The notes beneath the pieces are model-generated. The model was not told the DNA's origin. It worked only from the letters and a program-made list of their open reading frames with translations, and ran no database searches. From a virus (lineage: Duplodnaviria > Caudoviricetes): a stretch of 64,000 nucleotides of DNA. A program made the translations under genes and the position numbers. The stretch spans positions 17,840-81,839 of the IMG/VR virus record IMGVR_UViG_2740891848_000001, one strand, 5' to 3'. Below, one piece after another: positions 45,969 through 58,279 of the stretch (position 1 is its first letter; each line of letters opens with the position of its first letter).

Positions 45969-46563
45969 TCCGATCCGCGTTCACGCGCAGACCGTTGCCG
46001 AGGCGCTAAGCGCCCTTCGGCAACTCCCTGGCTTTGATGTCGAGAACCCGGTCCCGGTCAAGGTCAAAGGGTTCGACTGCCGCGATGCATTGTTTTCACC
46101 GACCGATGAAACCGAGTTGCACGTCTACCCACCTCTCTCGGGCGGCGGCGGCAACGGTGGGCTGCTGCAAACGATCATCGGCGCGGTCATGGTCGTCGTC
46201 GGCGTGGTCGTCGGTGTATTGACCTCATGGACCGGCGTCGGTGGCGCTTTCGGCTATAGCTTGGCGATATCTGGCGCGATGATGATGCTGGGCGGCATTC
46301 TGGCAATGCTCGCACCCACCCCAAAGGTGGACAACAACAGCAGCCAGTCCCTTTACATACCGGCCAATCAAAACACCACGAAGATCGGGACGCGAATACC
46401 GCTGCTGTACGGCCGCATTCGGCACTACGGCCACTACCTGTCGTTCAACGTTGACGCTCGCAAGCTCGACGACAGCAAGATGAACCTCGCCGGTTACTGC
46501 TCCGGCAGGACCGACTCGAACGGTGTCCGCTACTCGTACGGCACAACCTGCCTGCTCGCCTGA
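45922..46563 (+). CDS. Tail assembly protein (lambda I-like)
   Basis: IYLHGSL...TVAEAL, hydrophobic Gly-rich centre, GTRIPLLYG. Confidence 0.8.
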   Translation: MKTIYLHGSLKERHPDPIRVHAQTVAEALSALRQLPGFDVENPVPVKVKGFDCRDALFSPTDETELHVYPPLSGGGGNGGLLQTIIGAVMVVVGVVVGVLTSWTGVGGAFGYSLAISGAMMMLGGILAMLAPTPKVDNNSSQSLYIPANQNTTKIGTRIPLLYGRIRHYGHYLSFNVDARKLDDSKMNLAGYCSGRTDSNGVRYSYGTTCLLA

Positions 46564-49500
46564 TGAAACTGCTCGAAAAAGACCCCCAAGGCCTACGTGG
46601 TGCGGGGGGCGGCTCCAGCGGCCCTGACCGTACCAGCGACAATCTCTTCTCCCGAGACGTGGTCGAGATGGTGCTCGCACTGGGCGAAGGTCCGATCCGC
46701 GGACTGACGAACGGCATGAAATCGTTCTACGTAGGCGGCACGCCACTCCAGTCGGAAGACGGCTCGGTCAACTTTGAGTCGTTCAACTTGGGGGTCATGC
46801 GTGGTCACGTAGGAGATCCGCCCGTCAACTACCAACTCGGCGGTGAAACATCCAACACCGCTGTGGGGGTCCGGCTGTTCCAAGGCACTTGGGTCACGCG
46901 CCAGACCGACAGCTCGCTGGTCAATGTTGTCGATCAACTTCAGGTTCGGATTCAGTTCAACGCCCTGTACGTGCAGAACGACAAGGGGTCGTACAACAAT
47001 ACCGCCAACTTCGACATCCAGTACCGCCAGTCGAACAGTAGCGGTGCGTGGGCTTCGGTCACTGGGAACACCATCAAGGTCACCGGCAAGACAACCGCTG
47101 GCTACGTCGTTGACTACTGCTGGGACGTTCCACGCGTCAACACGACATGGGATATCCGGGTCCGAAAGAATAACCCCGACAGCTCGACAACCGACTTCTG
47201 CGACCTGTCGTGGGAAAGCTTCCAGATGGTCACGAAGGGCAACCGCACGTATGACCGTGTGGCCCTCATGCACCTTGTCGCCCTCGCGACCAGCCAGTTC
47301 ACGTCGATCCCGGACTTTGGTGTGGACGTTGACGGGCTTGAGATCCTGATCCCGACGAATTACAACGGGGACACGCATACCTATGACCTGTCCGCCCCCG
47401 TCTGGGATGGCTCTTTCAAGCAGGCGTGGTCGAACAACCCGGCGTGGATTCTGTATGACCTCTTGATGAACCCGAGCTACGGGCTGCGCAAGTATTACCC
47501 GTGGTTGACCTGCAACCGCTTCGACTTCTACGACGCTGCCCGGTGGTGCGATACGCTCGTACCGGACGGACGGGGTGGTCAGCAGCCGCGCTACACCTTC
47601 AACCTGGCGATCAAGGACCAGCAGGCCGGTCTCGACATGCTCCAGTACGTGGCGGGCACGTTTGGCGCGGTCATCTTCGACGATGCTACCGGCATGGTTC
47701 ATCTCCGCGTAGACAAGTGGGAAGAGCCTCAGTTGCTCTTCACGCCGGAGAACATCACCCCCGAGGGCTTCAGTTACACGTTCTCGGACATCACCACCCG
47801 GTACAACGACCTCGAAGTCAACTTCGTGAACCCGGATCTCGACTGGCAAAAGGACATGCGGCCTTGCCAGAATCCGGATCACATCGCGCTCAACGGACAC
47901 ATCACGAGCACGTTCGAGGCTATCGGTTGCACGGACGAACATGAAGCGCTGCGCCGTGCTTACTACCGGATGATCACGGCAACCACCGAGTGCGCAACGG
48001 TTAGTTTTACGACGGCACGGCTCGGCGTGATCGTAGACCCCTACAAGCCGATTTATGTCGCGGACCCCAGCGCGGGCTTCTCGATGCCGGGGCGGATCAA
48101 GTCGATCTTCAACGGGGTGATCTACCTCCGCGACCCGATCTACTTCACGGTGGTGCAAGATTACACGCTGCTCCTTCAGACGCGCAGCGGTCTTGTTCCG
48201 CTCGTCGTGCGGCCTGCGGATGTCGGCTCGACGTACCAGATCTCGATTACGTCTAGCGTAATTCCCCCAGACGTGCCTGATAGGACCGTCTTCACTATCG
48301 AAGACAACGGCGGCTTCGGTATCGCCAAGCCGTTCCGTGTCATTGCGATTGACCCGCAGGACAACAACCCGAACTCGTTCAAGCTCACCGCGGTTGAGAT
48401 GAACGTGAACAAGCAGTGGGCTGCGGACAATTGCGTTCCGATCGGCAGCGTTCCCTACTCGTTCAAGAACCCGCTGGTCCCACCGCCGCCGACGAAGATG
48501 GCTCTGGCCTCCGGAACCGACGAGATGATCATCGGCCAGGACGGCTCGATCATGGCCCGCATCTTTGCCTCGTGGGACGCACCTGGCAACGCGATGATTG
48601 ACCACTACGACATCGCGTGGAAGCCGTCGAACCAGTCGACGTGGACATACACGACCAGCTCCGGTGAAAGCGTCTTCCTCGCTCCGGCCATCTCGGGTGA
48701 GCTTTACGACATCACCGTATGGGCGGTCAACGCCTTCGGCAACCGCAGCTCACAGCTGTCCACCTGGGGCTATAAGTGCGTCGGGAAGGATGATCCGCCG
48801 AGCAACGTCACGAACTTCACGGTTGTGCGCCGCCAGAACGACATCCTGCTGAAGTGGGACGCGATCAAGGATCTTGACCGTGCTGGCTACGAGATCCGCC
48901 TTGGCACCAGCTGGGACACGGCGACCGTGCTGGTCACGGACTACCAGGCGACGCAGTTCGCGTGGACGACCGACACCGGAGGTCTGTACACCTTCCTGAT
49001 CCGCGCGATCGACACGAGCGGCAATCGCTCCCTGCTGCCGACGCAGCAGCAGATCAGCCTCGTCGGTCCCTCGCCGGTCAAGGGAGTGATCGCGATCCAG
49101 TCTGGCAACCGTATCGAGTTCCGCTGGAACCCGAACCCGGAAAACAACATCCTCAGCTACGAGATGCGCGAAGGCGACACATGGAACACCGCAGTGTTCG
49201 TCGCACAGACCAAAGCTACCTCGTTCGGCCTCACGGCCGGTGCGGCCGGCACGCGCAAGTTCTGGATCAAGGCGTTCGGCTCGCCGGGGATCTATTCCGA
49301 CAAGGCGACGTTCGTCACGACCGATGTCGCGCAGAGCGACAGCACCAACATCATCTATACCAGCGACGAACTGGCGCGAGGCTTCAAGGGCACGCGCTAC
49401 AACATGGTCGTCTACGGGAACTCTCTGCGCATGGACGATGGCAAGGACCGCGCTGAGTACATCTTCAGCGTCAACCTGCCGACCGACTTCCGCGCCCAGA

Positions 49501-50165
49501 ACACTCTGTTCATCGGCCTCGACGCGATCGTGGACATGACGACGAAGTGGAACGAAGCCAACTGGTCGTGGAACGACCCGAAGGCACAGCAGCCGTGGGC
49601 GTCTCAGGGTGACATCTCGTCGATCAACTACCTCGCCGAGATCTCGATGCTGTCAACCACCGCCGACAGCCTGCTGTACGCATGGAAGCTCGATGGCGAC
49701 CTGACCTATGCCGGCCCGGGTGATGACGGCGAGATTATGGAACAGCAGAACGTCAGCTACGGCGCGGGCAAGTTCGGCTCGGGTCTGTTGGTCCAGACGC
49801 CCCCGCTGCAACCGATCCCGACACGCGTGACATTCAGCACGAACATCCCCAACACGTTCGCCAACTGGTTCTGGGTCGTACCGCACGACTTGCTAGACGA
49901 CACCTATGTGAGCTGCTGCGGCCGGAACGGTCGACAGATCACCATCGGTTACGAGGCGTCGATCCTCAGCGTGTATGCAATCGACGACCATGGGCTGAAG
50001 ATCTCCGTCCCTATGGGACTCAAGGTGGGCGAACGCTACTTGATCGGTATCTCGCAAGAAGCCAACAAGCGCACGCTCTATATCGGCACCGAAAACGGCG
50101 CGACCTATAGCGGCTCGATCACGGCTCCCGGTATCGGGCCGACAATCAACTACTCGCTCTACTGA
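46563..50165 (+). CDS. Central tail-tip/host specificity protein (TipJ-like)
   Basis: EGPIRGL, WSNNPAWILYD, PRYTFN, and FN3 repeats. Confidence 0.88.
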   Translation: MKLLEKDPQGLRGAGGGSSGPDRTSDNLFSRDVVEMVLALGEGPIRGLTNGMKSFYVGGTPLQSEDGSVNFESFNLGVMRGHVGDPPVNYQLGGETSNTAVGVRLFQGTWVTRQTDSSLVNVVDQLQVRIQFNALYVQNDKGSYNNTANFDIQYRQSNSSGAWASVTGNTIKVTGKTTAGYVVDYCWDVPRVNTTWDIRVRKNNPDSSTTDFCDLSWESFQMVTKGNRTYDRVALMHLVALATSQFTSIPDFGVDVDGLEILIPTNYNGDTHTYDLSAPVWDGSFKQAWSNNPAWILYDLLMNPSYGLRKYYPWLTCNRFDFYDAARWCDTLVPDGRGGQQPRYTFNLAIKDQQAGLDMLQYVAGTFGAVIFDDATGMVHLRVDKWEEPQLLFTPENITPEGFSYTFSDITTRYNDLEVNFVNPDLDWQKDMRPCQNPDHIALNGHITSTFEAIGCTDEHEALRRAYYRMITATTECATVSFTTARLGVIVDPYKPIYVADPSAGFSMPGRIKSIFNGVIYLRDPIYFTVVQDYTLLLQTRSGLVPLVVRPADVGSTYQISITSSVIPPDVPDRTVFTIEDNGGFGIAKPFRVIAIDPQDNNPNSFKLTAVEMNVNKQWAADNCVPIGSVPYSFKNPLVPPPPTKMALASGTDEMIIGQDGSIMARIFASWDAPGNAMIDHYDIAWKPSNQSTWTYTTSSGESVFLAPAISGELYDITVWAVNAFGNRSSQLSTWGYKCVGKDDPPSNVTNFTVVRRQNDILLKWDAIKDLDRAGYEIRLGTSWDTATVLVTDYQATQFAWTTDTGGLYTFLIRAIDTSGNRSLLPTQQQISLVGPSPVKGVIAIQSGNRIEFRWNPNPENNILSYEMREGDTWNTAVFVAQTKATSFGLTAGAAGTRKFWIKAFGSPGIYSDKATFVTTDVAQSDSTNIIYTSDELARGFKGTRYNMVVYGNSLRMDDGKDRAEYIFSVNLPTDFRAQNTLFIGLDAIVDMTTKWNEANWSWNDPKAQQPWASQGDISSINYLAEISMLSTTADSLLYAWKLDGDLTYAGPGDDGEIMEQQNVSYGAGKFGSGLLVQTPPLQPIPTRVTFSTNIPNTFANWFWVVPHDLLDDTYVSCCGRNGRQITIGYEASILSVYAIDDHGLKISVPMGLKVGERYLIGISQEANKRTLYIGTENGATYSGSITAPGIGPTINYSLY

Positions 50166-50628: not shown

Positions 50629-50637
50629 AACTCCTTT

Positions 50638-50688
50638 GGCGCGCTGGCCCGCGCCCGTAAAATTCGGATAGCGAAAGGACACCACCAC
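50638..50688 (+). promoter_or_regulatory. Leader with a CTGGCC-loop hairpin followed by CACCACCAC
   Basis: GGCGCG-ctggcc-CGCGCC (50638-55), AAGGA SD, CACCACCAC (50680-88), ATG at 50690. Confidence 0.65.
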
Positions 50689-50689
50689 G

Positions 50690-52135
50690 ATGCAAGAATT
50701 TCAGCAGATACCAGACAGTCAGCGGATCTCCGACTCGCTCGCGCCGCTGCTAAACAACGACCTCACCGCGATCTCGCGGAATGCTGGCCAAGCGTACCCG
50801 ACCACTGGCCTGGTCGTGGGCATGCCGTATCTCAGCACGCAAGAAAACAAGCTCTACCGGCTGGCCAGCCTGTCTCCGATCACTTGGACTCTGGAGCTGG
50901 ACTTTAATCGCGCGATGGCATATGCGGATGATGTAGCTGCTGCGGTGGCGAACGCCAATGGGCGCGTGTCCCGTGGCGGCGACACAATGACTGGCTACCT
51001 CACACTCAACGGCGATCCGACGCAGGCACTGCACGCGGCACCGAAGCGCTACGTGGACGCGCAGCGCGACGCGGCGATCGCTATCGCCAACCTGGCGATG
51101 CAGCGGTCGGGCGGCACGATGACCGGCCCGCTGCTGCTTTCCTCGGACCCGACGCAGCCAGCGCAGGCCTCGACGAAGAACTACACCGACTACCTCTACA
51201 ACGCGCTGAATAACGCGAAGTTGAACCGCAGCGGCGACACGCTCGGAGAGGTTTACAACAACGGCTGGTATCGCTCGAATGGAGCGGTGGGCTGGTTCAA
51301 CCAGACCTACGGCGGCGGCATCTTCATGCAGAACTCCGGCTACGTGTCGGTCTATGGCGGCAAGGGCTTCTCGACCGACACTCACACGCTGGAGCAAGGG
51401 ACTGGTGGGATCTGGACTTCACGCTATGGGTGGCTGGAGAACCGCTTCGCGGCAAAGGACGCAGAGGGGGCGCTTACCTCGGTCGGGACAGTAGACAAAG
51501 CCGGTGGCAACGTCTCGTGGCCTGCCGGCTTCTACCTACAGCAGAGCGGCCGACAGGTCCAGCTGGTCCGGACCTCGACCAACTGCAACTGCAACTGCGC
51601 CTGCACCTGTTTCCCGGCTGGCACGCGGATCATGATGGCCGACCGCTCCTGGAAGAACGTCGAGGACATCGTCGTCGGCGACGTGCTGATGACGCCGCTC
51701 GGCCCCGAATCCGTGCTCGATGTCGAGACGCCAAAACTAGGCGACCGCTGGATGGTTGGCTTCGAAGACGAGCCCTTCCGCTGGACCGACGACCACGCCT
51801 TCTGGACGCGCCGACACGGCGAGCAGGGGCTGGGTGTCTACGACAAGGAGTCGTGGCTGAACGGTGTGCACGCAGGCGTGGTCAAGGGGCTTCCCGACAA
51901 TGATGACGTTCGTCTTTTGGACGACCGCTCGGACGAATTCGCGCACATCTCCGGTTGGAAGCGTAAGACGCTGGCTCGCTTCCCCTACCCGTCACAGACG
52001 CCAGTCTACCTGCCGATCGTCGGCGGTTGCCACATGATCATCGCGGAAGGCTACGTGGTCTCGGCCGGTGCGGACGGCTTCGATTTCGACTACAGCACCT
52101 TCAACTGGGAGGGTTTGAAAGATGCTGCTGCATAA
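50690..52135 (+). CDS. Tail fibre with a Cys-rich NCNCNCACT motif and a C-terminal Hint domain
   Basis: xGDTMTGxL fibre repeats and a PilV/fibre-like NGWYRSNG..GW.N..YGGG segment. Hint block A CFPAGT (Cys307, nt 51608), block B WTDDH, block F-like VYLPIV.GCHMIIAEGYVV. Confidence 0.8.
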   Translation: MQEFQQIPDSQRISDSLAPLLNNDLTAISRNAGQAYPTTGLVVGMPYLSTQENKLYRLASLSPITWTLELDFNRAMAYADDVAAAVANANGRVSRGGDTMTGYLTLNGDPTQALHAAPKRYVDAQRDAAIAIANLAMQRSGGTMTGPLLLSSDPTQPAQASTKNYTDYLYNALNNAKLNRSGDTLGEVYNNGWYRSNGAVGWFNQTYGGGIFMQNSGYVSVYGGKGFSTDTHTLEQGTGGIWTSRYGWLENRFAAKDAEGALTSVGTVDKAGGNVSWPAGFYLQQSGRQVQLVRTSTNCNCNCACTCFPAGTRIMMADRSWKNVEDIVVGDVLMTPLGPESVLDVETPKLGDRWMVGFEDEPFRWTDDHAFWTRRHGEQGLGVYDKESWLNGVHAGVVKGLPDNDDVRLLDDRSDEFAHISGWKRKTLARFPYPSQTPVYLPIVGGCHMIIAEGYVVSAGADGFDFDYSTFNWEGLKDAAA

Positions 52136-52826
52136 GTCCCTGATCCCCGCCACTCTCGCGGGAGATGATCTGAAGAAAGTCGGCGCGGTAGCCACCGCGA
52201 TTGCGACGCCCACCGGCTTCGTGGTCAGCTGCAAGGAACTGTCGCTCTACTGGCAGTTCGACTTGCAGAAAGTCGAGTTCGGGCTCGATGTCTTGCATCT
52301 GGTAAAGAGCCGCACGGGTCAGTACGTGCCGGTCTGGGGTAGCGATCTTCACGAGTCGAAGGATAGCTGGTCGAGCTGCATGTTCCGCAAGAACCTCGAC
52401 TCATTCCAGCCTGTTTGCATCGTCGGGGTTGCCGCCGACAAGAAGAGCTTCACCGTGGTCTTCTTCGTCAACACGCAAGAACCGAACAACCCGACGCCGC
52501 AGGAGGATAGCTCCACGGATTCGGGTGACATGCTGCTAAAGCGCGTGATGCCCGAGCTGGCTCCGACCATCGACCGCTGGCACGCGAAGCACAAGCTGCT
52601 GAAGGACACGAAGACGAACGACTCCCTCGCCGCGCTCGAAGCACAAGTGGATCTACTCACGCAGTGGGTCTCCGCGTTGATCCCCGACGAGTACCGCCAG
52701 AAACTCCTTGACGCTGGTGTGCTGAAACTGAAGGATACGAAGATCGTTGTCGATGACGTGGTCGCGTTCAAAACCGCGCTCCGCGCGCGGCAGGAAACCT
52801 ACCTCACCACCACAGAGCAGCAATGA
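52122..52826 (+). CDS. Hypothetical protein coupled to the fibre and radical SAM genes
   Basis: 234 aa; overlaps the fibre stop (14 nt) and the rSAM start (ATGA). Confidence 0.7.
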   Translation: MLLHKSLIPATLAGDDLKKVGAVATAIATPTGFVVSCKELSLYWQFDLQKVEFGLDVLHLVKSRTGQYVPVWGSDLHESKDSWSSCMFRKNLDSFQPVCIVGVAADKKSFTVVFFVNTQEPNNPTPQEDSSTDSGDMLLKRVMPELAPTIDRWHAKHKLLKDTKTNDSLAALEAQVDLLTQWVSALIPDEYRQKLLDAGVLKLKDTKIVVDDVVAFKTALRARQETYLTTTEQQ

Positions 52827-54172
52827 CCTCGTTCGTTCTGAAAGCGCTCGACGCCGCTGGCGTCGAGCGTAGTTTTTTGTACAACAACATGTCGAGCCAA
52901 TTGACGGACGCGAGCACTGGCCGCTCGCTCATGTCAAAGACCGGCGACCACCCGTACGTGCCTGCCAAGCCCCCCGGCCGCAAGGACGCGATCATCCGCA
53001 CCCTGAAGATCCAACTGGGCCTCTCGTGCAACTACAGCTGCGAATACTGCTCGCAGCGCTTCGTACCGCACGGCGAGCAAACCGGCCCTTACTCCGTCGA
53101 TCACTTCATGTCGCGCCTGACATGGTCTGCCAGCCTCGCTGACGACGCGACGGTCGAGTTCTGGGGTGGCGAGCCGCTGGTCTACTGGAAGACGCTCGTG
53201 CCGCTCGTAGACGCGCTCCGGATGCGCTACCCTGCCCTTACCCTCAAGATGATCACGAACGGCTCCCTGCTCGACCAGAATAGGATCGCGTGGCTGATCA
53301 CGAATGGATTCCAGATTGGCCTCTCACACGATGGTCCCGGCCAGAATACGCGCGGCCCTGACCCGCTCGACGATCCGCTCGCGCGCGAGGCGATCCTGAC
53401 GCTGTACCAGCGTCTGGCGCCGTTGGGTCGCATGTCGTTCAACACCATGCTGCACAAGGACAACCGGTCGCGCGCGGCGGCGCAGAAGTTCTTCATTGAG
53501 CTGACCGGCGACCCGAACGTGCCGATCGGCGAAGGCATGATGATCGACGCCTACGACGAGGGCGGCAAAGGCATGTCGATGGACAACCTGGCCGATCACA
53601 TCGTCTACCGCAAGCAAGCCTTCGAAGAGCTGCGCCGCGGCGACGCGATCAACTTCACGAGCGTGACTGAGAAGATCCACGATTTCGCACGCTCGGTCGA
53701 GACGAGCCGACCCGGCATTGCAGTTGGCCAGAAGTGCGGCTCCGATCGCGGCGACAGCCTGACGGTCACGCTCAACGGCGACGTGCTGACGTGCCAGAAC
53801 GTATCGACCGTTTCCGTCGCGCCAAACGGCAAGAGCCACCGCGCCGGCTCGCTCGAAAACATCGACGCGGTGCGCGTCGAATCGTCACGTCACTGGTCAA
53901 CCCGCAAAGACTGTTCGAGCTGCCCGGTCGTGCAGCTCTGCAAAGGCTCCTGCATGTTTCTTGAGAACGATCTCTGGGACGTGACCTGTGAGAGCGCCTA
54001 CAGCGACAACGTGGTGTTCTTGGCCACCGCCTTGTTCGAGCTGACTGGCTGCAGCCTGAGAACCATCGAGCCGATGACTGGCGAGTTGCCCGAGCACCGC
54101 CGCAACGTCTTCGGCCCTATCACCAACACGCGGTCCACCACCCGCAAACCTATCTGGATCAAACAGCAATGA
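52823..54172 (+). CDS. Radical SAM enzyme with a SPASM domain
   Basis: CNYSCEYC (CxxxCxxC), FWGGEPL, ITNGSLL, SHDG. SPASM cysteines KCG...TCQ...CSSCPVVQLCKGSC...C. Confidence 0.93.
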   Translation: MTSFVLKALDAAGVERSFLYNNMSSQLTDASTGRSLMSKTGDHPYVPAKPPGRKDAIIRTLKIQLGLSCNYSCEYCSQRFVPHGEQTGPYSVDHFMSRLTWSASLADDATVEFWGGEPLVYWKTLVPLVDALRMRYPALTLKMITNGSLLDQNRIAWLITNGFQIGLSHDGPGQNTRGPDPLDDPLAREAILTLYQRLAPLGRMSFNTMLHKDNRSRAAAQKFFIELTGDPNVPIGEGMMIDAYDEGGKGMSMDNLADHIVYRKQAFEELRRGDAINFTSVTEKIHDFARSVETSRPGIAVGQKCGSDRGDSLTVTLNGDVLTCQNVSTVSVAPNGKSHRAGSLENIDAVRVESSRHWSTRKDCSSCPVVQLCKGSCMFLENDLWDVTCESAYSDNVVFLATALFELTGCSLRTIEPMTGELPEHRRNVFGPITNTRSTTRKPIWIKQQ

Positions 54173-54546
54173 ACGAAGCCCCACAACCCCTCGACGCCCA
54201 GCCGCTGATCGACGCGCTGACGCGCCAACGTAACGAGCAAATGGACCGCGTCGCACACGCGGAGGCCGCGCTGTTCACCACGCAGCAGGCTCTTCAAACC
54301 GCGCTCGCTTCGAGCGCGAAGGTTCAGTCGATGCTCGACGACACGCTGGTCGCAATGCAACAACAGCAGGATCTGAATGAACTGAACAAGATTGAGCAAG
54401 AGCGCGCGACCGTTGGCCTGCGCGAGCAGGTCAAGAACCTCCAAGACCAACTCGCCGCGCACCAGGCTGTGCCGGCGACCGCACCGAGCGGCATCGTGAT
54501 CCCGCCGCTCGGCACGCTGCCCGAAGCCAACGCGATTACCGCCTGA
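54169..54546 (+). CDS. Gln-rich coiled-coil protein
   Basis: 125 aa with an ATGA overlap with the rSAM gene. Confidence 0.65.
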   Translation: MNEAPQPLDAQPLIDALTRQRNEQMDRVAHAEAALFTTQQALQTALASSAKVQSMLDDTLVAMQQQQDLNELNKIEQERATVGLREQVKNLQDQLAAHQAVPATAPSGIVIPPLGTLPEANAITA

Positions 54547-54572
54547 TACCACTCTGGTTCAGAGTAGTTCAC

Positions 54573-54598
54573 AAGGGAACCCACGCGGTTCCCTTTTC
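54573..54598 (+). terminator. Rho-independent terminator
   Basis: AAGGGAACC-cacgc-GGTTCCCTTTT closes the fibre/rSAM operon. Confidence 0.75.
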
Positions 54599-54680
54599 GT
54601 TTGCTGTGCGAAGAAACTCTTTGTATTGAGTTTTCACGGCCAATAAAATTTCGGCACTCACCACCACCACAGAGTGCTTC

Positions 54681-55211
54681 ATGGCCATCACATCCGATCA
54701 GCTTCGGCAGATCTGGACGCACGCACCGACAGCTCGATGTGTGACGTTTGCCCCGCTGCTGAACTCCGCGATGTCGCGCTTCGGCATCGACACCTCCGAA
54801 GAGATCGTCGAGTTCCTGGCGCAAGTCTCGCACGAGTCTGGCGAAGGCCAATGGCTCAAGGAACTTGCCAGCGGGCAGGCCTATGAAGGCCGCAAAGACC
54901 TCGGCAACACGCAACCTGGTTGGGGCGTCTTGTACAAAGGCCGCGGCTTGATCCAATGCACGGGCTACACGAACTACGTGCTCATGGGTCTTCTGCTCGA
55001 CCTCGACCTGATCAACCACCCGGAACTGCTCGAACTACCGGAGAACGCCTGTCTGAGCGCTGCGGCTTTCTGGTGGAACCATCGTCTCGACGACCTCGCG
55101 GCGAAGAAAGATTTCATCGCAGTCACGAAGGTGGTCAACGGTGGCACCAACGGCCTCGCCGATCGTCAGCACTATCTCGCCTTGGCCCGCGCCGCGCTGG
55201 GAGTCAACTGA
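54681..55211 (+). CDS. Endolysin, glycoside hydrolase family 19
   Basis: FLAQVSHESG, YKGRGLIQCTGYTNY, VTKVVNGGTNGLADR. Confidence 0.93.
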   Translation: MAITSDQLRQIWTHAPTARCVTFAPLLNSAMSRFGIDTSEEIVEFLAQVSHESGEGQWLKELASGQAYEGRKDLGNTQPGWGVLYKGRGLIQCTGYTNYVLMGLLLDLDLINHPELLELPENACLSAAAFWWNHRLDDLAAKKDFIAVTKVVNGGTNGLADRQHYLALARAALGVN

Positions 55212-56007: not shown

Positions 56008-56534
56008 ACCTGACCTTGATCTCCGCAGTAGTAGCGGCAGCGATTGCCGCCACTGCCTCGTGGTACGTGACCAGCGACCACTACGAGGGTGTCATCGCTA
56101 AGAACAACGCCGACCAAGAACAGGCGCTGTTGTTCAAGCAGCACGAGGCCGACGCGCGTGCCCTCCTCACTCAAACCCAATCGGGCATCGTGATCAACCG
56201 GATCTCGCTCGACTACGAAGGAAAATTGAAAGATGCGGCTACTCAGCACGATCTCGATCTGCGCCTCGTGCGCGATGGCTCTCTCCGCTTGCGTGACGCA
56301 GCCGCGACCTGTGGCAGTCAACCAGCCGCAGGTTCACTTGGCTCCAGCACCAGCGTACCTACTGACTCCGGAGGAGCCGAACTTTCGGTGTCGGCTACTG
56401 AATTTCTTCTCGGCGAAGCCGACCGCGCAGACGGAACAGTGCGGAAGCTCAATTCCTGCATTGCTGTAGTCAAAAGCGACCGAGAAATCCTCGACAAGAT
56501 CCTCAACCAGAATAACGACGCAGGCCAGCAATGA
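56004..56534 (+). CDS. Inner-membrane spanin (Rz-like)
   Basis: N-terminal transmembrane helix, coiled coil, DLRLVRDGSLRLR pattern. Confidence 0.85.
   Translation: MNLTLISAVVAAAIAATASWYVTSDHYEGVIAKNNADQEQALLFKQHEADARALLTQTQSGIVINRISLDYEGKLKDAATQHDLDLRLVRDGSLRLRDAAATCGSQPAAGSLGSSTSVPTDSGGAELSVSATEFLLGEADRADGTVRKLNSCIAVVKSDREILDKILNQNNDAGQQ
56233..56469 (+). CDS. Outer-membrane spanin lipoprotein (Rz1-like), embedded in the +1 frame
   Basis: Lipobox MALSAC, Pro-rich, fully nested within Rz. Confidence 0.8.
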   Translation: MRLLSTISICASCAMALSACVTQPRPVAVNQPQVHLAPAPAYLLTPEEPNFRCRLLNFFSAKPTAQTEQCGSSIPALL

Positions 56535-58279
56535 GTTCAGCAACTCTCCCACTGACCCCGACAAATCCCGACCAGCAGCCGACCGTGGTCGTGATCTCGC
56601 CCATGCTGGCTGCGGCGGGCGGGGCCACGCCTATCCGGATGATCTATGGCACGGGCGCACCGACCGGGACGATCGGCAACGATGGTGATTCGTACATCAA
56701 TGTCGACACCAGCTTCATGTACGGCCCGAAAGCCAACGGCGTCTGGCCTGCTGGTTACAGCCTGAAGGGGCAGAAAGGCGACAAGGGTGACATGGGTGAC
56801 ATCGGGAAGTACCCGATCAACTTCCTGAACGTGGCGCAGGGCCAGCTCGACATCGACTTGAGCGTGCCGGGTAGCGCGTTCTTTGCGACGCTGAACGACC
56901 CGGCAACCAAGATCACGTTCTCGAAGTACGCAACGGACGATCCGACTATCGCCCGCCAGTTCACCCTGGTCCTGAACCAAGGCACGGGTGGCAACAATGT
57001 GACCTCATGGCCTTCGAACATCAACTGGAACTTCAAGGGTACGCCGACGCTGACGACCCAGAAGGGCGGCTACGACGTGATCACGTTCAGCACGTTCGAC
57101 GGCGGCACAACGTACATCGGCCAATACGCGGGGAACATCAACAAGGTAAGCGGTAGCCTACTAGGTGGTCTAAATCTACTGGACGACAACTCGATCAACC
57201 GTGGCGGCTTGCAGGTCATCGACGGCGACATCTGGCTCCTGTCGAATGCTTACTGGGACTCCGTGCAGAAAGAGTTCTACCGCGTCGACATCACCCGGCC
57301 CGCGTTCGGCGTTCAGGTGCAGGGGCAGAACAACATCCCTGGCGAAGACGAACTCGGCTACCACGTGTCGGGCATGAACTTCTGGGCCGCGCAAGTCACT
57401 GGTTACCAGCTCATCCGCAACGGGGGCGACAAGGCCAACGGGCGCTACGCGGGCATCGGCGGCTGGGAGCTGGGCATCATCGTGTCCAGCGAACGGAACC
57501 TGACGGTCGGTGGCATGGGCATCGAGCTGGACGGCAACGGCACCTTTCCCTACGGCCGGGTCATCCACAACACGAGCGGCACGATCTTCGCACGGCGCTC
57601 CACTGGCATGGTCCGCAACATCTATCCGGACTACGGCGGCTACGACGACCCGAAGCAAGGTAGCTGGATGTTCGGCACGATCGAGAACTACGATCCGGCT
57701 GACCCCGACAGGAAGACGATTCCAGGCAGCGAAGGTTGGGTGGTCGAGTACATGCCACCGAACACCCAAGGACCGGCTGACGTGAAGCGGCTGCTGGGTG
57801 TGTATCCGGACGGCCGCATCGTCGCGTACGCATCGCCTGAAAAGGGCGACAACTCGAAGCAACTGGTCACTTCTGAATGGGTGGTCGGCAGCATCGCGAG
57901 CGCCGCGGATCTGATTGCAGGAGATCCACAAGGCCTCGTTGGCGTCCATGAGATGTGGAGCGCCGCGCAGTGGCAGCAGCTCGGCAATCTCGCTGGCAAC
58001 GTCGTAATCGACGGCTCGTTGGGCCTGCGGTTCCACGGGGTCTTGACGGCGGATGTTGTCCTTGACTTTAAGAACGTCAAGAACGGACAGACGATCGAGC
58101 TGGCACTGACCCAAGACGGCGCCGGCAACCATGCTGTGAACTGGGCCGACAAGGTGAAGTTCGTCGGCGCACGCCCGGTAGCGGCGACCGCAGCGAACGC
58201 TGACGCATTGCTGGCCACCGTGGAAGGTTCCTGGGATCCAGCAAACAAGTTGATCGGATCGGGGGGTGCATTCGTATGA
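56531..58279 (+). CDS. Virion fibre/structural protein with a short collagen-like motif and a duplicated domain
   Basis: MYGPKANGVWP..GQKGDKGDMGD; two copies of an ID.S....L.L.Q...G...V.W domain. Confidence 0.65.
   Translation: MSSATLPLTPTNPDQQPTVVVISPMLAAAGGATPIRMIYGTGAPTGTIGNDGDSYINVDTSFMYGPKANGVWPAGYSLKGQKGDKGDMGDIGKYPINFLNVAQGQLDIDLSVPGSAFFATLNDPATKITFSKYATDDPTIARQFTLVLNQGTGGNNVTSWPSNINWNFKGTPTLTTQKGGYDVITFSTFDGGTTYIGQYAGNINKVSGSLLGGLNLLDDNSINRGGLQVIDGDIWLLSNAYWDSVQKEFYRVDITRPAFGVQVQGQNNIPGEDELGYHVSGMNFWAAQVTGYQLIRNGGDKANGRYAGIGGWELGIIVSSERNLTVGGMGIELDGNGTFPYGRVIHNTSGTIFARRSTGMVRNIYPDYGGYDDPKQGSWMFGTIENYDPADPDRKTIPGSEGWVVEYMPPNTQGPADVKRLLGVYPDGRIVAYASPEKGDNSKQLVTSEWVVGSIASAADLIAGDPQGLVGVHEMWSAAQWQQLGNLAGNVVIDGSLGLRFHGVLTADVVLDFKNVKNGQTIELALTQDGAGNHAVNWADKVKFVGARPVAATAANADALLATVEGSWDPANKLIGSGGAFV

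What the first reader, a model, noticed from the sequence alone, without database searches (positions are those of the whole stretch)
50690..54598. Candidate RiPP-like system that modifies a virion tail fibre: Cys-rich fibre tip + Hint + unknown protein + radical SAM/SPASM enzyme
Seen in sequence: four translationally coupled genes (14-nt, ATGA and ATGA overlaps) are closed by one terminator at 54573-98. They are a tail fibre ending in ...RTSTNCNCNCACT|CFPAGT(Hint), a 234-aa unknown, a radical SAM enzyme with a complete SPASM Cys set, and a coiled-coil protein. Established: rSAM/SPASM enzymes typically act on peptide or protein substrates encoded nearby (sactipeptide and ranthipeptide thioether crosslinks, the AnSME Cys-to-formylglycine conversion, PqqE, MftC), often at Cys-rich motifs. 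Inference: the alternating (N/A/T)-C tract (nt 51581-51610) is the substrate. The phage would crosslink or chemically alter the distal end of its fibre, and Hint cleavage would expose it as the new C-terminus. I know of no characterised phage structural protein matured this way.
Basis: partly seen in the sequence, partly recalled or inferred. Interest (0 to 1): 0.92.

Follow-up and report, generated by a model that had tools for sequence, protein, structure and literature searches.

The report
Radical-SAM module for cysteine-tailed phage fibre
An 82-kb prophage makes a tail fibre that ends in an Asn-Cys "ladder" capped by a self-cutting Hint domain, and a radical-SAM enzyme of the peptide-crosslinking type accompanies such ladders in almost every phage I sampled, so these viruses probably modify their host-binding fibre tips enzymatically, which no searched paper describes.

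Summary
Four overlapping genes lie at 50690-54546 and one terminator closes them at 54573-95. They encode a fibre ending NCNCNCACT|CFPAGT-Hint, a 234-aa unknown, a radical SAM enzyme with a 7-Cys SPASM domain, and a 125-aa protein.

The substrate hypothesis is strongly supported by comparative genomics:
- Of 122 related rSAM loci with enough upstream DNA, 116 have a same-strand upstream ORF with an (x-Cys)n tract. In 100 it is the extreme C-terminus; in 14 a Hint-like domain follows.
- In the reverse direction, 35 of 36 real ORFs carrying NCNCNCxC in IMG/VR have an rSAM homologue nearby.
- The non-Cys residues are Asn 70%, Asp 14% and Ala 10%.

The enzyme's nearest relatives are CteB, QhpD, PapB and AnSME, but it belongs to none of these families and has no RRE. 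The core system is fibre tail plus rSAM. The 234-aa and 125-aa genes are lineage-specific, and most relatives add 2OG-Fe(II) oxygenases.

The most likely chemistry is Cys-to-Asn thioether crosslinking, with Hint removal exposing the tract. This chemistry is inferred, not shown.

I found no paper on it. Earlier agents of this scan found the same system on other phage DNA.

The parts
50636..50663 (+). Weak sigma-70-like promoter match upstream of the fibre gene
   Evidence: TTGGCG-16-TAAAAT, 9 of 12 positions. One site was found against 0.8 expected, so it is not significant on its own.
50690..51607 (+). Tail-fibre body (aa 1-306) with a conserved N-terminal attachment region, fibre repeats and a distal domain
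   Evidence: phrog_16641 tail fiber, E 1.7e-7. The gene follows the gpJ-like gene at 46563-50165. It is 49-50% identical to Achromobacter phage JWF gp28 and its phage 2-1 homologue.
51581..51610 (+). Asn/Ala/Thr-Cys tract NCNCNCACTC; the last Cys is Cys1 of the Hint domain. Proposed substrate of the rSAM enzyme.
   Evidence: Tracts of the same type lie at or near the C-terminus of the upstream ORF in 116 of 122 related loci.
51608..52135 (+). C-terminal Hint autoprocessing domain (aa 307-481). It has no His-Asn and no C-extein, so only N-terminal cleavage is expected.
   Evidence: C1, T6 and T60-x-x-H63 are invariant. The profile hits intein/Hint chains in the PDB at E 4e-7.
52122..52826 (+). 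234-aa protein (family 'X15') with an N-terminal alpha/beta domain and a C-terminal helical bundle. Proposed fibre-specific helper; function unknown.
   Evidence: No Pfam, NCBIfam or PHROG hit. AF2 model with pLDDT 72. No convincing fold match in PDB or BFVD. Present in 24 of 119 cassettes, never together with family A.
52823..54172 (+). Radical SAM enzyme with a 7-Cys SPASM domain and a short three-stranded N-terminal beta unit; no RRE
   Evidence: phrog_1802 at E 1.8e-60. Best structural matches are CteB (E 5.5e-12) and AnSME (E 1.4e-10).
52844..52880 (+). Strong hairpin plus T-run inside codons 8-19 of the rSAM gene; a possible attenuator of enzyme expression
   Evidence: -24.1 kcal/mol, z -3.8. 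The stem is kept in L084, L085 and JWF, with one change on both sides of a pair.
54169..54546 (+). 125-aa Ala/Gln/Leu-rich protein, found only in the JWF-like lineage
   Evidence: Weak similarity to JWF gp31 (E 1e-4). Absent from most cassettes.
54573..54605 (+). Intrinsic-terminator-like hairpin that closes the four-gene unit, before the endolysin gene at 54681
   Evidence: JWF has an annotated terminator in the same position.

Best explanation
This is a virion-protein maturation module. The side tail fibre is made as a precursor: fibre body, then the tract NCNCNCACT, then a Hint domain. The radical SAM/SPASM enzyme encoded two genes downstream acts on the Asn-Cys tract. The most likely mechanism (inferred) is as follows. 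A tract Cys thiolate binds the auxiliary cluster that has only three protein ligands. The 5'-deoxyadenosyl radical removes a hydrogen from a neighbouring Asn (or Asp/Ala), most likely at C-beta. A C-S thioether (ranthionine-type) bond forms, and this repeats along the overlapping N-x-x-C registers. The bonds lie within one chain or between chains of the presumably trimeric fibre. The Hint domain performs an N-S acyl shift at Thr306-Cys307, and the thioester is resolved by hydrolysis. That removes the Hint domain and leaves the modified tract as the distal C-terminus, the form that most relatives encode directly. The 234-aa protein is a lineage-specific helper, either a chaperone or an adaptor. 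The product would be a hardened or chemically altered host-binding tip. What is shown: the anatomy, the enzyme class, and a very tight two-way genomic linkage between tract and enzyme. What is inferred: that the tract is the substrate (about 0.85), that the product is a thioether (about 0.5), and that the Hint domain is removed by cleavage (about 0.7).
For: Forward linkage: 116 of 122 rSAM loci with more than 3.2 kb upstream carry a same-strand upstream ORF with (xC)>=3. In 100 the tract is within 8 residues of the stop, and in 14 a Hint-like domain follows. Reverse linkage: in an IMG/VR scan for NCNCNCxC, 35 of 36 hits inside ORFs of at least 80 aa with at least 4 kb downstream have an rSAM homologue of 21-84% identity. 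Among microsatellite-like hits in short ORFs with the same flank, 3 of 23 do. The same pairing occurs in the cultured phages JWF, 2-1 and RSP15; the RSP15 fibre ends ...NTNCQCGN. The tract sits on at least seven unrelated carrier protein clusters of 92-686 aa, so the tail itself, not one fibre family, travels with the enzyme. The X positions in 87 distinct tails are N 280, D 55 and A 40. The first X is Asn in 99% of 80 tails. NxxcB makes a Cys-Asn beta-thioether and tolerates Ala, Gln and Asp as acceptors (PMC9389541). The best family and structure matches are thioether-forming or Cys-modifying SPASM enzymes: QhpD 1.1e-14 and PapB 1e-13, CteB 4.7e-8 by sequence and 5.5e-12 by fold. Only 7 conserved SPASM cysteines are present. 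From my own knowledge, this is as in CteB, where the open iron of Aux I binds the substrate Cys. Protein-sized substrates have precedents in QhpD/QhpC and CrpC/CrpA (PMC13692751). For the Hint domain, the catalytic Cys1 and TxxH are invariant, no terminal His-Asn is present, and the same fibre families contain both Hint-bearing and Hint-less members.
Against: There is no biochemical or proteomic evidence at all. The enzyme scores far below the cut-off of every characterised family (54 against 453 for QhpD, 51 against 340 for PapB, 45 against 349 for AnSME), so its chemistry cannot be transferred by membership. Fold similarity to CteB (thioether) and to AnSME (formylglycine) is nearly equal. 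The six CteB 'catalytic proximity' positions read S77, W114, I144, S168, Q325, N326 here against F, F, T, S, H, Q in CteB. I derived these and PMC10288494, and the result is not diagnostic. No RRE or leader is detectable. Gly, Tyr and Arg occur occasionally at X positions. The hosts are aerobes, and most cassettes also contain O2-dependent 2OG oxygenases, so the overall product may be more complex than thioethers. Distant homologues of 24-25% identity (Ralstonia phage RP12, Thermus phage phiMa) have no Cys tract nearby.
Confidence: 0.6

Rival explanations
1. The rSAM does act on the tract but makes something other than a crosslink. One option is oxidation of Cys to formylglycine, as AnSME does, which would give aldehydes at the fibre tip. 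Others are epimerisation or another side-chain change.
For: AnSME is among the best matches: TIGR03942 at 7e-12, PDB 4k37, and fold E 1.4e-10, nearly equal to CteB. JWF gp30 was originally annotated as an anaerobic sulfatase-maturating enzyme. AnSME also acts on a folded protein without an RRE.
Against: The AnSME recognition motif C/S-x-P/A-x-R is absent from every tract. The score is 45 against a cut-off of 349. There are seven, not eight, SPASM-region cysteines. The strong Asn/Asp/Ala preference beside each Cys is what a Cys-acceptor pair would need; a lone Cys target would not need it.
Confidence: 0.15
2. The alternating Cys tract is mainly a metal- or iron-sulfur-binding site formed where the three chains of the fibre meet. 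This would resemble the HxH iron sites of T4 gp37 or the Fe-S cluster of lambda gpL. The rSAM would prepare or protect the site rather than staple it.
For: Alternating residues in a strand put all Cys on one face. Metal sites in phage fibre and tail tips are established (my own knowledge). CrpA is also suspected to bind metals (PMC13692751). Many tails end in extra CC or CGCC.
Against: A passive metal site needs no dedicated radical enzyme, yet the enzyme is almost obligatory. The Asn/Asp/Ala preference at X is not explained by this reading.
Confidence: 0.08
3. The linkage is only modular. The rSAM modifies another target (the family A or X15 protein, another virion protein, or a host molecule) and merely rides in the same fibre cassette.
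For: One or more unknown proteins (family A or X15) lie between fibre and enzyme in 104 of 119 cassettes.
Against: Several loci have the tract ORF directly abutting the rSAM with nothing between them: five architectures with no gene in between, and a 16-nt gap in L052. The accessory families vary while the tract and the enzyme are constant. The tract occurs on unrelated carrier proteins.
Confidence: 0.05
4. A variant that concerns the Hint domain only. Its thioester is not simply hydrolysed but is used for ligation or cyclisation: attack by a nearby thiol or amine, or by another protein such as the 234-aa product. The result would be a C-terminal ring or a covalent fibre-partner link.
For: Hedgehog-type Hint domains pass their thioester to a nucleophile other than water (established). 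The residue before Cys1 is Thr, Ser or Cys, next to several thiols. Hint domains were recruited at this exact spot at least twice on the rSAM tree, and four sequence types are seen in all.
Against: Most relatives have no Hint domain and simply end at the tract, so no Hint-dependent ligation can be essential to the system.
Confidence: 0.1

Closest known systems
NxxcB / NxxcA (streptococcal radical SAM RiPP; PMC9389541)
   Same: A SPASM-type radical SAM enzyme links Cys to the beta-carbon of an Asn three residues upstream (N-x-x-C). It tolerates Ala, Gln and Asp as acceptors. The phage tract NCNCNC is a run of overlapping N-x-x-C registers whose X residues are Asn, then Asp, then Ala.
   Different: NxxcA is a short secreted peptide with a leader, under quorum-sensing control. 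Here the carrier is a 92-686 aa virion fibre protein, no leader or RRE is detectable, and the tract is C-terminal. I had no NxxcB model or sequence, so sequence relatedness to it was not tested.
QhpD / QhpC (TIGR03906)
   Same: It is the best NCBIfam hit (E 1.1e-14). It installs Cys-Asp and Cys-Glu thioethers in a protein subunit, not a peptide antibiotic (PMC13692751 introduction).
   Different: The score is 54 bits against a cut-off of 453, and only the rSAM core aligns. QhpD uses an RRE and a leader. Its substrate is an enzyme subunit in the periplasm.
CrpC / CrpA of Methanococcus voltae (PMC13692751, 2026)
   Same: A SPASM radical SAM enzyme was shown experimentally to put ranthionine crosslinks into a large Cys-repeat protein encoded next to it.
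   Different: The system is archaeal and cellular. It has a 17-residue repeat with C-x-x-Q/D motifs and a predicted RRE. The related model TIGR04463 matches the phage enzyme only weakly (30 bits against 525).
CteB (SCIFF maturase, PDB 5WGG/5WHY) and PapB
   Same: CteB is the closest solved structure by sequence (E 4.7e-8) and by fold (E 5.5e-12). Both it and the phage enzyme have a 7-Cys SPASM domain and act on Cys.
   Different: CteB has an N-terminal RRE of about 90 residues. The phage enzyme has only about 55 residues, forming three beta strands, before the core. Its active-site proximity residues differ from CteB's.
Anaerobic sulfatase-maturating enzyme (AnSME, PDB 4K37)
   Same: It has a similar fold (E 1.4e-10) and acts on a Cys of a full-length protein without an RRE.
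   Different: AnSME needs the motif C/S-x-P/A-x-R and has eight SPASM-region Cys. The score here is 45 against a cut-off of 349.
Hedgehog / bacterial intein-like Hint domains, and the self-cleaving C-terminal chaperone domains of phage fibres (endosialidase type)
   Same: Hint domains have an N-terminal Cys and TxxH and cleave only on their N-terminal side. Like the endosialidase-type chaperone, this is a C-terminal domain that is presumably discarded after the fibre matures.
   Different: This is not an intein: it has no C-extein and no His-Asn. It is unrelated in sequence to the Peptidase_S74 chaperone domain. Cleavage itself was not shown here.

Membership tests
Radical SAM superfamily (PF04055) | Cx3Cx2C cluster motif in a partial TIM-barrel core | tested here: met
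   C69-x3-C73-x2-C76 is invariant. The fold matches rSAM structures at probability 1.0. The PF04055 score is 24.9, below the cut-off of 29.5, but relatives score well above it.
SPASM domain (TIGR04085) | Seven-Cys motif Cx9-15Gx4C...Cx2Cx5Cx3C...C for two auxiliary clusters | tested here: met
   33.2 bits against a cut-off of 27. C305-x13-G-x4-C324, C364-x2-C367-x5-C373-x3-C377 and C389 are all invariant.
QhpD (TIGR03906), PapB (NF047865), AnSME (TIGR03942), SCIFF maturase (TIGR03974) | Whole-protein score above the curated equivalog cut-off | tested here: not met
   54 against 453, 51.3 against 340, 45.1 against 349.45 and 33.2 against 425.
RiPP system in the strict sense | Short precursor with a leader peptide recognised by an RRE (PqqD-like) domain | tested here: inconclusive
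   No PqqD/RRE hit in the rSAM or the 234-aa protein. The rSAM has only about 55 residues (three strands) before its core. The carriers are proteins of 92-686 aa. A structural RRE equivalent cannot be excluded.
phrog_1802 (phage radical SAM proteins) | Profile match over most of the length | tested here: met
   E 1.8e-60, residues 37-416.
Hint superfamily | N-terminal nucleophile (Cys1) and block B TxxH | tested here: met
   C1, T6 and T60-x-x-H63 are invariant in 9 domains of two subtypes. The profile hits intein/Hint chains at E 4e-7. Four Hint Pfam families are hit, all below their gathering scores.
Inteins (protein splicing) | C-terminal His-Asn followed by a C-extein nucleophile | tested here: not met
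   The block-G equivalent reads VVSAG or AVES, and the protein ends 20 or fewer residues later.
Phage tail fibre | Position in the tail module and similarity to fibre proteins | tested here: met
   The gene follows the gpJ-like gene (PF24801, PF13550). phrog_16641 tail fiber at E 1.7e-7. Fibre repeat similarity to Streptomyces and Bacillus phage fibres. A trimeric state was not tested.

The most novel reading that the evidence does not exclude
Phages use a dedicated radical SAM enzyme to weld the three chains of a receptor-binding fibre tip together with inter-chain Cys-Asn thioethers. A disposable Hint domain holds the tract in register and then leaves. This would be the first enzymatically crosslinked virion adhesin, and a widespread, unrecognised layer of phage structural biochemistry: 250 clusters at 50% identity match at E <= 1e-30.
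Probability: 0.25. Interest if true: 0.9.

Novelty: new variant of a known kind. Interest (0 to 1): 0.8.

Why it matters
Radical SAM/SPASM crosslinking is known for small secreted peptides and for two cellular proteins, QhpC and CrpA. It is not known for any virus particle. If fibre tips are modified in this way, three things follow. First, structures and host-range predictions made from sequence alone miss a covalent feature of the adhesin. Second, recombinant fibres or engineered phages made without the enzyme may be immature. Third, the tract plus enzyme, about 10 residues and one gene, would be a compact portable tag for stapling proteins. The system is directly testable because Achromobacter phages JWF and 2-1 and Ralstonia phage RSP15 are in culture. 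The family is large: 250 representatives at E <= 1e-30, mostly in freshwater Burkholderiales phages.

Tried and rejected
- The 234-aa protein gave no Pfam, NCBIfam or PHROG hit. The Atlas gave no lead (best score 0.77). Its AF2 model (pLDDT 72) has no Foldseek PDB match at E <= 0.001, only generic helical matches at Z <= 5.8 in the wide VIA search, and one uncharacterised BFVD protein. Profile comparison found no relation between it (X15) and family A or the oxygenases.
- Family A also gave nothing in the Atlas.
- Catalytic-site proximity profiling (PMC10288494) was attempted. I could read the six positions, but the reference profiles are only in figures and supplements that are not held, so the result is inconclusive.
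- Fold search does not separate CteB-like from AnSME-like chemistry.
- Long family members carry no Pfam-detectable fusion partner. Three have GNAT-like extensions by eye only.
- Literature searches for radical SAM with tail fibre, SPASM with prophage, ranthipeptide with phage tail, NCNCNC, and Hint domain with tail fibre found nothing relevant. No JWF virion proteomics paper was found in the searchable library.
- The AU test for a single origin of the Hint-bearing clade did not finish and was dropped.

Full report
**1. What is in the window**

The window is part of an 81,839-bp IMG/VR provirus that CheckV rates complete. Its gene order matches Achromobacter phage JWF. After the gpJ-like tip protein (46563-50165) and a 153-aa gene come four overlapping plus-strand genes:
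- 50690-52135: 481 aa.
- 52122-52826: 234 aa, with a 14-nt overlap.
- 52823-54172: 449 aa, with an ATGA overlap.
- 54169-54546: 125 aa, with an ATGA overlap.

A terminator-like hairpin at 54573-95 closes the unit. The endolysin gene follows at 54681.

The first protein is a tail fibre (phrog_16641). Residues 297-306 read NCNCNCACT and are followed by Cys307-FPAGT.

Residues 307-481 form a Hint domain:
- A profile of nine such domains hits intein/Hint structures at E 4e-7.
- Only Hint families appear in Pfam, although all are below their gathering scores.
- Cys1, Thr6 and TxxH are invariant, and no terminal His-Asn or C-extein is present.
- N-terminal cleavage is therefore the only reaction the domain can be expected to perform.

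The third protein is a radical SAM enzyme:
- It has Cx3Cx2C and a complete 7-Cys SPASM motif.
- It matches phrog_1802 at E 1.8e-60.
- It scores far below the cut-offs of QhpD, PapB, AnSME and every other curated family.
- Its AF2 model (pLDDT 78) is closest to CteB and AnSME.
- The model shows only a three-stranded beta unit of about 30 residues before the core, not an RRE.

**2. Is the tract the enzyme's partner?**

I aligned the rSAM with its homologues in JWF, phage 2-1 and Ralstonia phage RSP15. I then fetched 160 related loci from genomes and IMG/VR.

Forward test. Of 122 loci with more than 3.2 kb upstream, 116 carry a same-strand upstream ORF with at least three x-Cys units. In 100 the tract lies within 8 residues of the stop. 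In 14 a Hint-like domain follows. One of the six 'misses', RSP15, ends in NTNCQCGN.

Reverse test. I scanned IMG/VR for DNA encoding NCNCNCxC. Of hits inside ORFs of at least 80 aa with at least 4 kb downstream, 35 of 36 have an rSAM homologue. Identities run from 21% to 84%. The single exception is a giant-virus low-complexity stretch. Of the hits in short ORFs, which look like microsatellites, 3 of 23 with the same flank have one.

The tract sits on at least seven unrelated protein clusters of 92-686 aa. It behaves as a portable tail that travels with the enzyme. More distant rSAMs of 24-25% identity, in RP12 and Thermus phage phiMa, have no Cys tract nearby. This marks the edge of the association. 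The family is large, with 250 representatives at E <= 1e-30.

**3. Anatomy of the tract**

In 87 distinct tails the tract has 3-8 Cys. The X residues are N 280, D 55, A 40 and T 10, with few others. The first X is Asn in 99% of 80 tails, the second in 86% and the third in 72%.

Read in register, NCNCNC is a run of overlapping N-x-x-C motifs. NxxcB makes a Cys-to-Asn beta-thioether in exactly that motif and tolerates Ala, Gln and Asp as acceptors (PMC9389541). QhpD makes Cys-Asp and Cys-Glu thioethers in a protein. In 2026 CrpC was shown to install ranthionines in a large Cys-repeat protein (PMC13692751). These are resemblances, not membership.

**4. The rest of the cassette**

I clustered all genes of the loci and compared the cluster profiles. 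The core is tail-bearing protein plus rSAM. The genes between them fall into these groups:
- Family A, an unknown protein of about 280 aa: 80 of 119 loci.
- PF13759 or PF13640 2OG-Fe(II) oxygenases: 78 of 119 loci.
- The window's 234-aa family X15: 24 of 119 loci.

A and X15 never co-occur. Five loci have nothing between the two core genes. The window therefore carries a minimal variant with X15 only and no oxygenase.

X15 has an alpha/beta N-domain and a helical C-domain, with no recognisable relatives. I read it as a fibre-specific helper in the position where fibre chaperones usually lie. This is a guess from position.

The 125-aa gene is confined to the JWF-like lineage.

**5. The Hint domain**

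Two Hint subtypes about 25% identical follow the tract among the rSAM loci: CFPAGT and CFPLDT. Two more turned up in the reverse scan: CFVAGS in L249 and CFAPGT in L274. On an rSAM tree of 109 rows the Hint state needs two changes. Hint-bearing and Hint-less members occur within the same fibre families.

After cleavage, the Hint-bearing fibres would end exactly where the Hint-less ones end. Whether its thioester is only hydrolysed is open.

**6. Verdict**

- The interpretation that the rSAM acts on the fibre's Cys tract is strongly supported by two-way co-occurrence.
- The specific chemistry (thioether) is the best inference and is unproven. Formylglycine-type oxidation and a metal-site role remain possible.
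- I found no paper that describes radical SAM modification of a phage structural protein.
- Earlier agents of this scan reached the same reading on related prophages and on JWF itself. The counts, the accessory families and the enzyme classification given here are my own.

Noticed in passing
window 52844-52880: A 12-bp GC-rich hairpin followed by TTTTTTGT lies inside codons 8-19 of the rSAM gene (-24.1 kcal/mol, z -3.8). The stem is kept in L084 and L085. In JWF it is kept through a change on both sides of one pair (GAC/GTC to GAT/ATC). It may be an attenuator that keeps the enzyme level below the fibre level.
   Followed up: partly
L006-L163, between the tract ORF and the rSAM (e.g. L007:817-1503, L006:5231-5815, L010:5397-6008): 78 of 119 related cassettes carry one to three 2OG-Fe(II) oxygenases (PF13759-like and PF13640-like). 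Among distinct tails, those that continue with extra Cys (CC, CGCC) occur with oxygenases in 22 of 35 cases, against 1 of 21 without. This points to a second, O2-dependent modification in most relatives that this window lacks.
   Followed up: partly
L285 (Thermus phage phiMa) 4015-6302: A distant rSAM homologue (24% identity) follows a protein ending in His-x-Asp repeats (HGD..HGD..THSDTHSDTHTDTHAD), and the rSAM's own tail is also HGD-rich. This may be a different repeat-tail/rSAM pairing.
   Followed up: no
L064:3445-3750, L065:3406-3927, L187:44-550 (minus strand): In these loci the tract-bearing gene lies downstream of the rSAM. The tract is followed by a conserved domain of about 170 aa (SKIICAKLY...) that is not a Hint domain and has no Pfam hit. 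It would be another kind of C-terminal cap.
   Followed up: partly
P0145, P0110 (C-terminal) and P0151 (N-terminal) extensions: Three rSAM family members are fused to a domain of about 150 aa that looks GNAT-acetyltransferase-like by eye. Pfam gave no hit at E <= 0.001.
   Followed up: no
window 52803-52822 and 54652-54680: Both the rSAM start and the endolysin start are preceded by CACCACCAC(C)ACAGAG instead of a Shine-Dalgarno sequence.
   Followed up: no
window 56531-58279: A second fibre-like gene (582 aa; hits to several tail-fibre PHROGs) lies after the lysis cassette. It has no Cys tract. The phage thus has one rSAM-associated fibre and one ordinary fibre.
   Followed up: no
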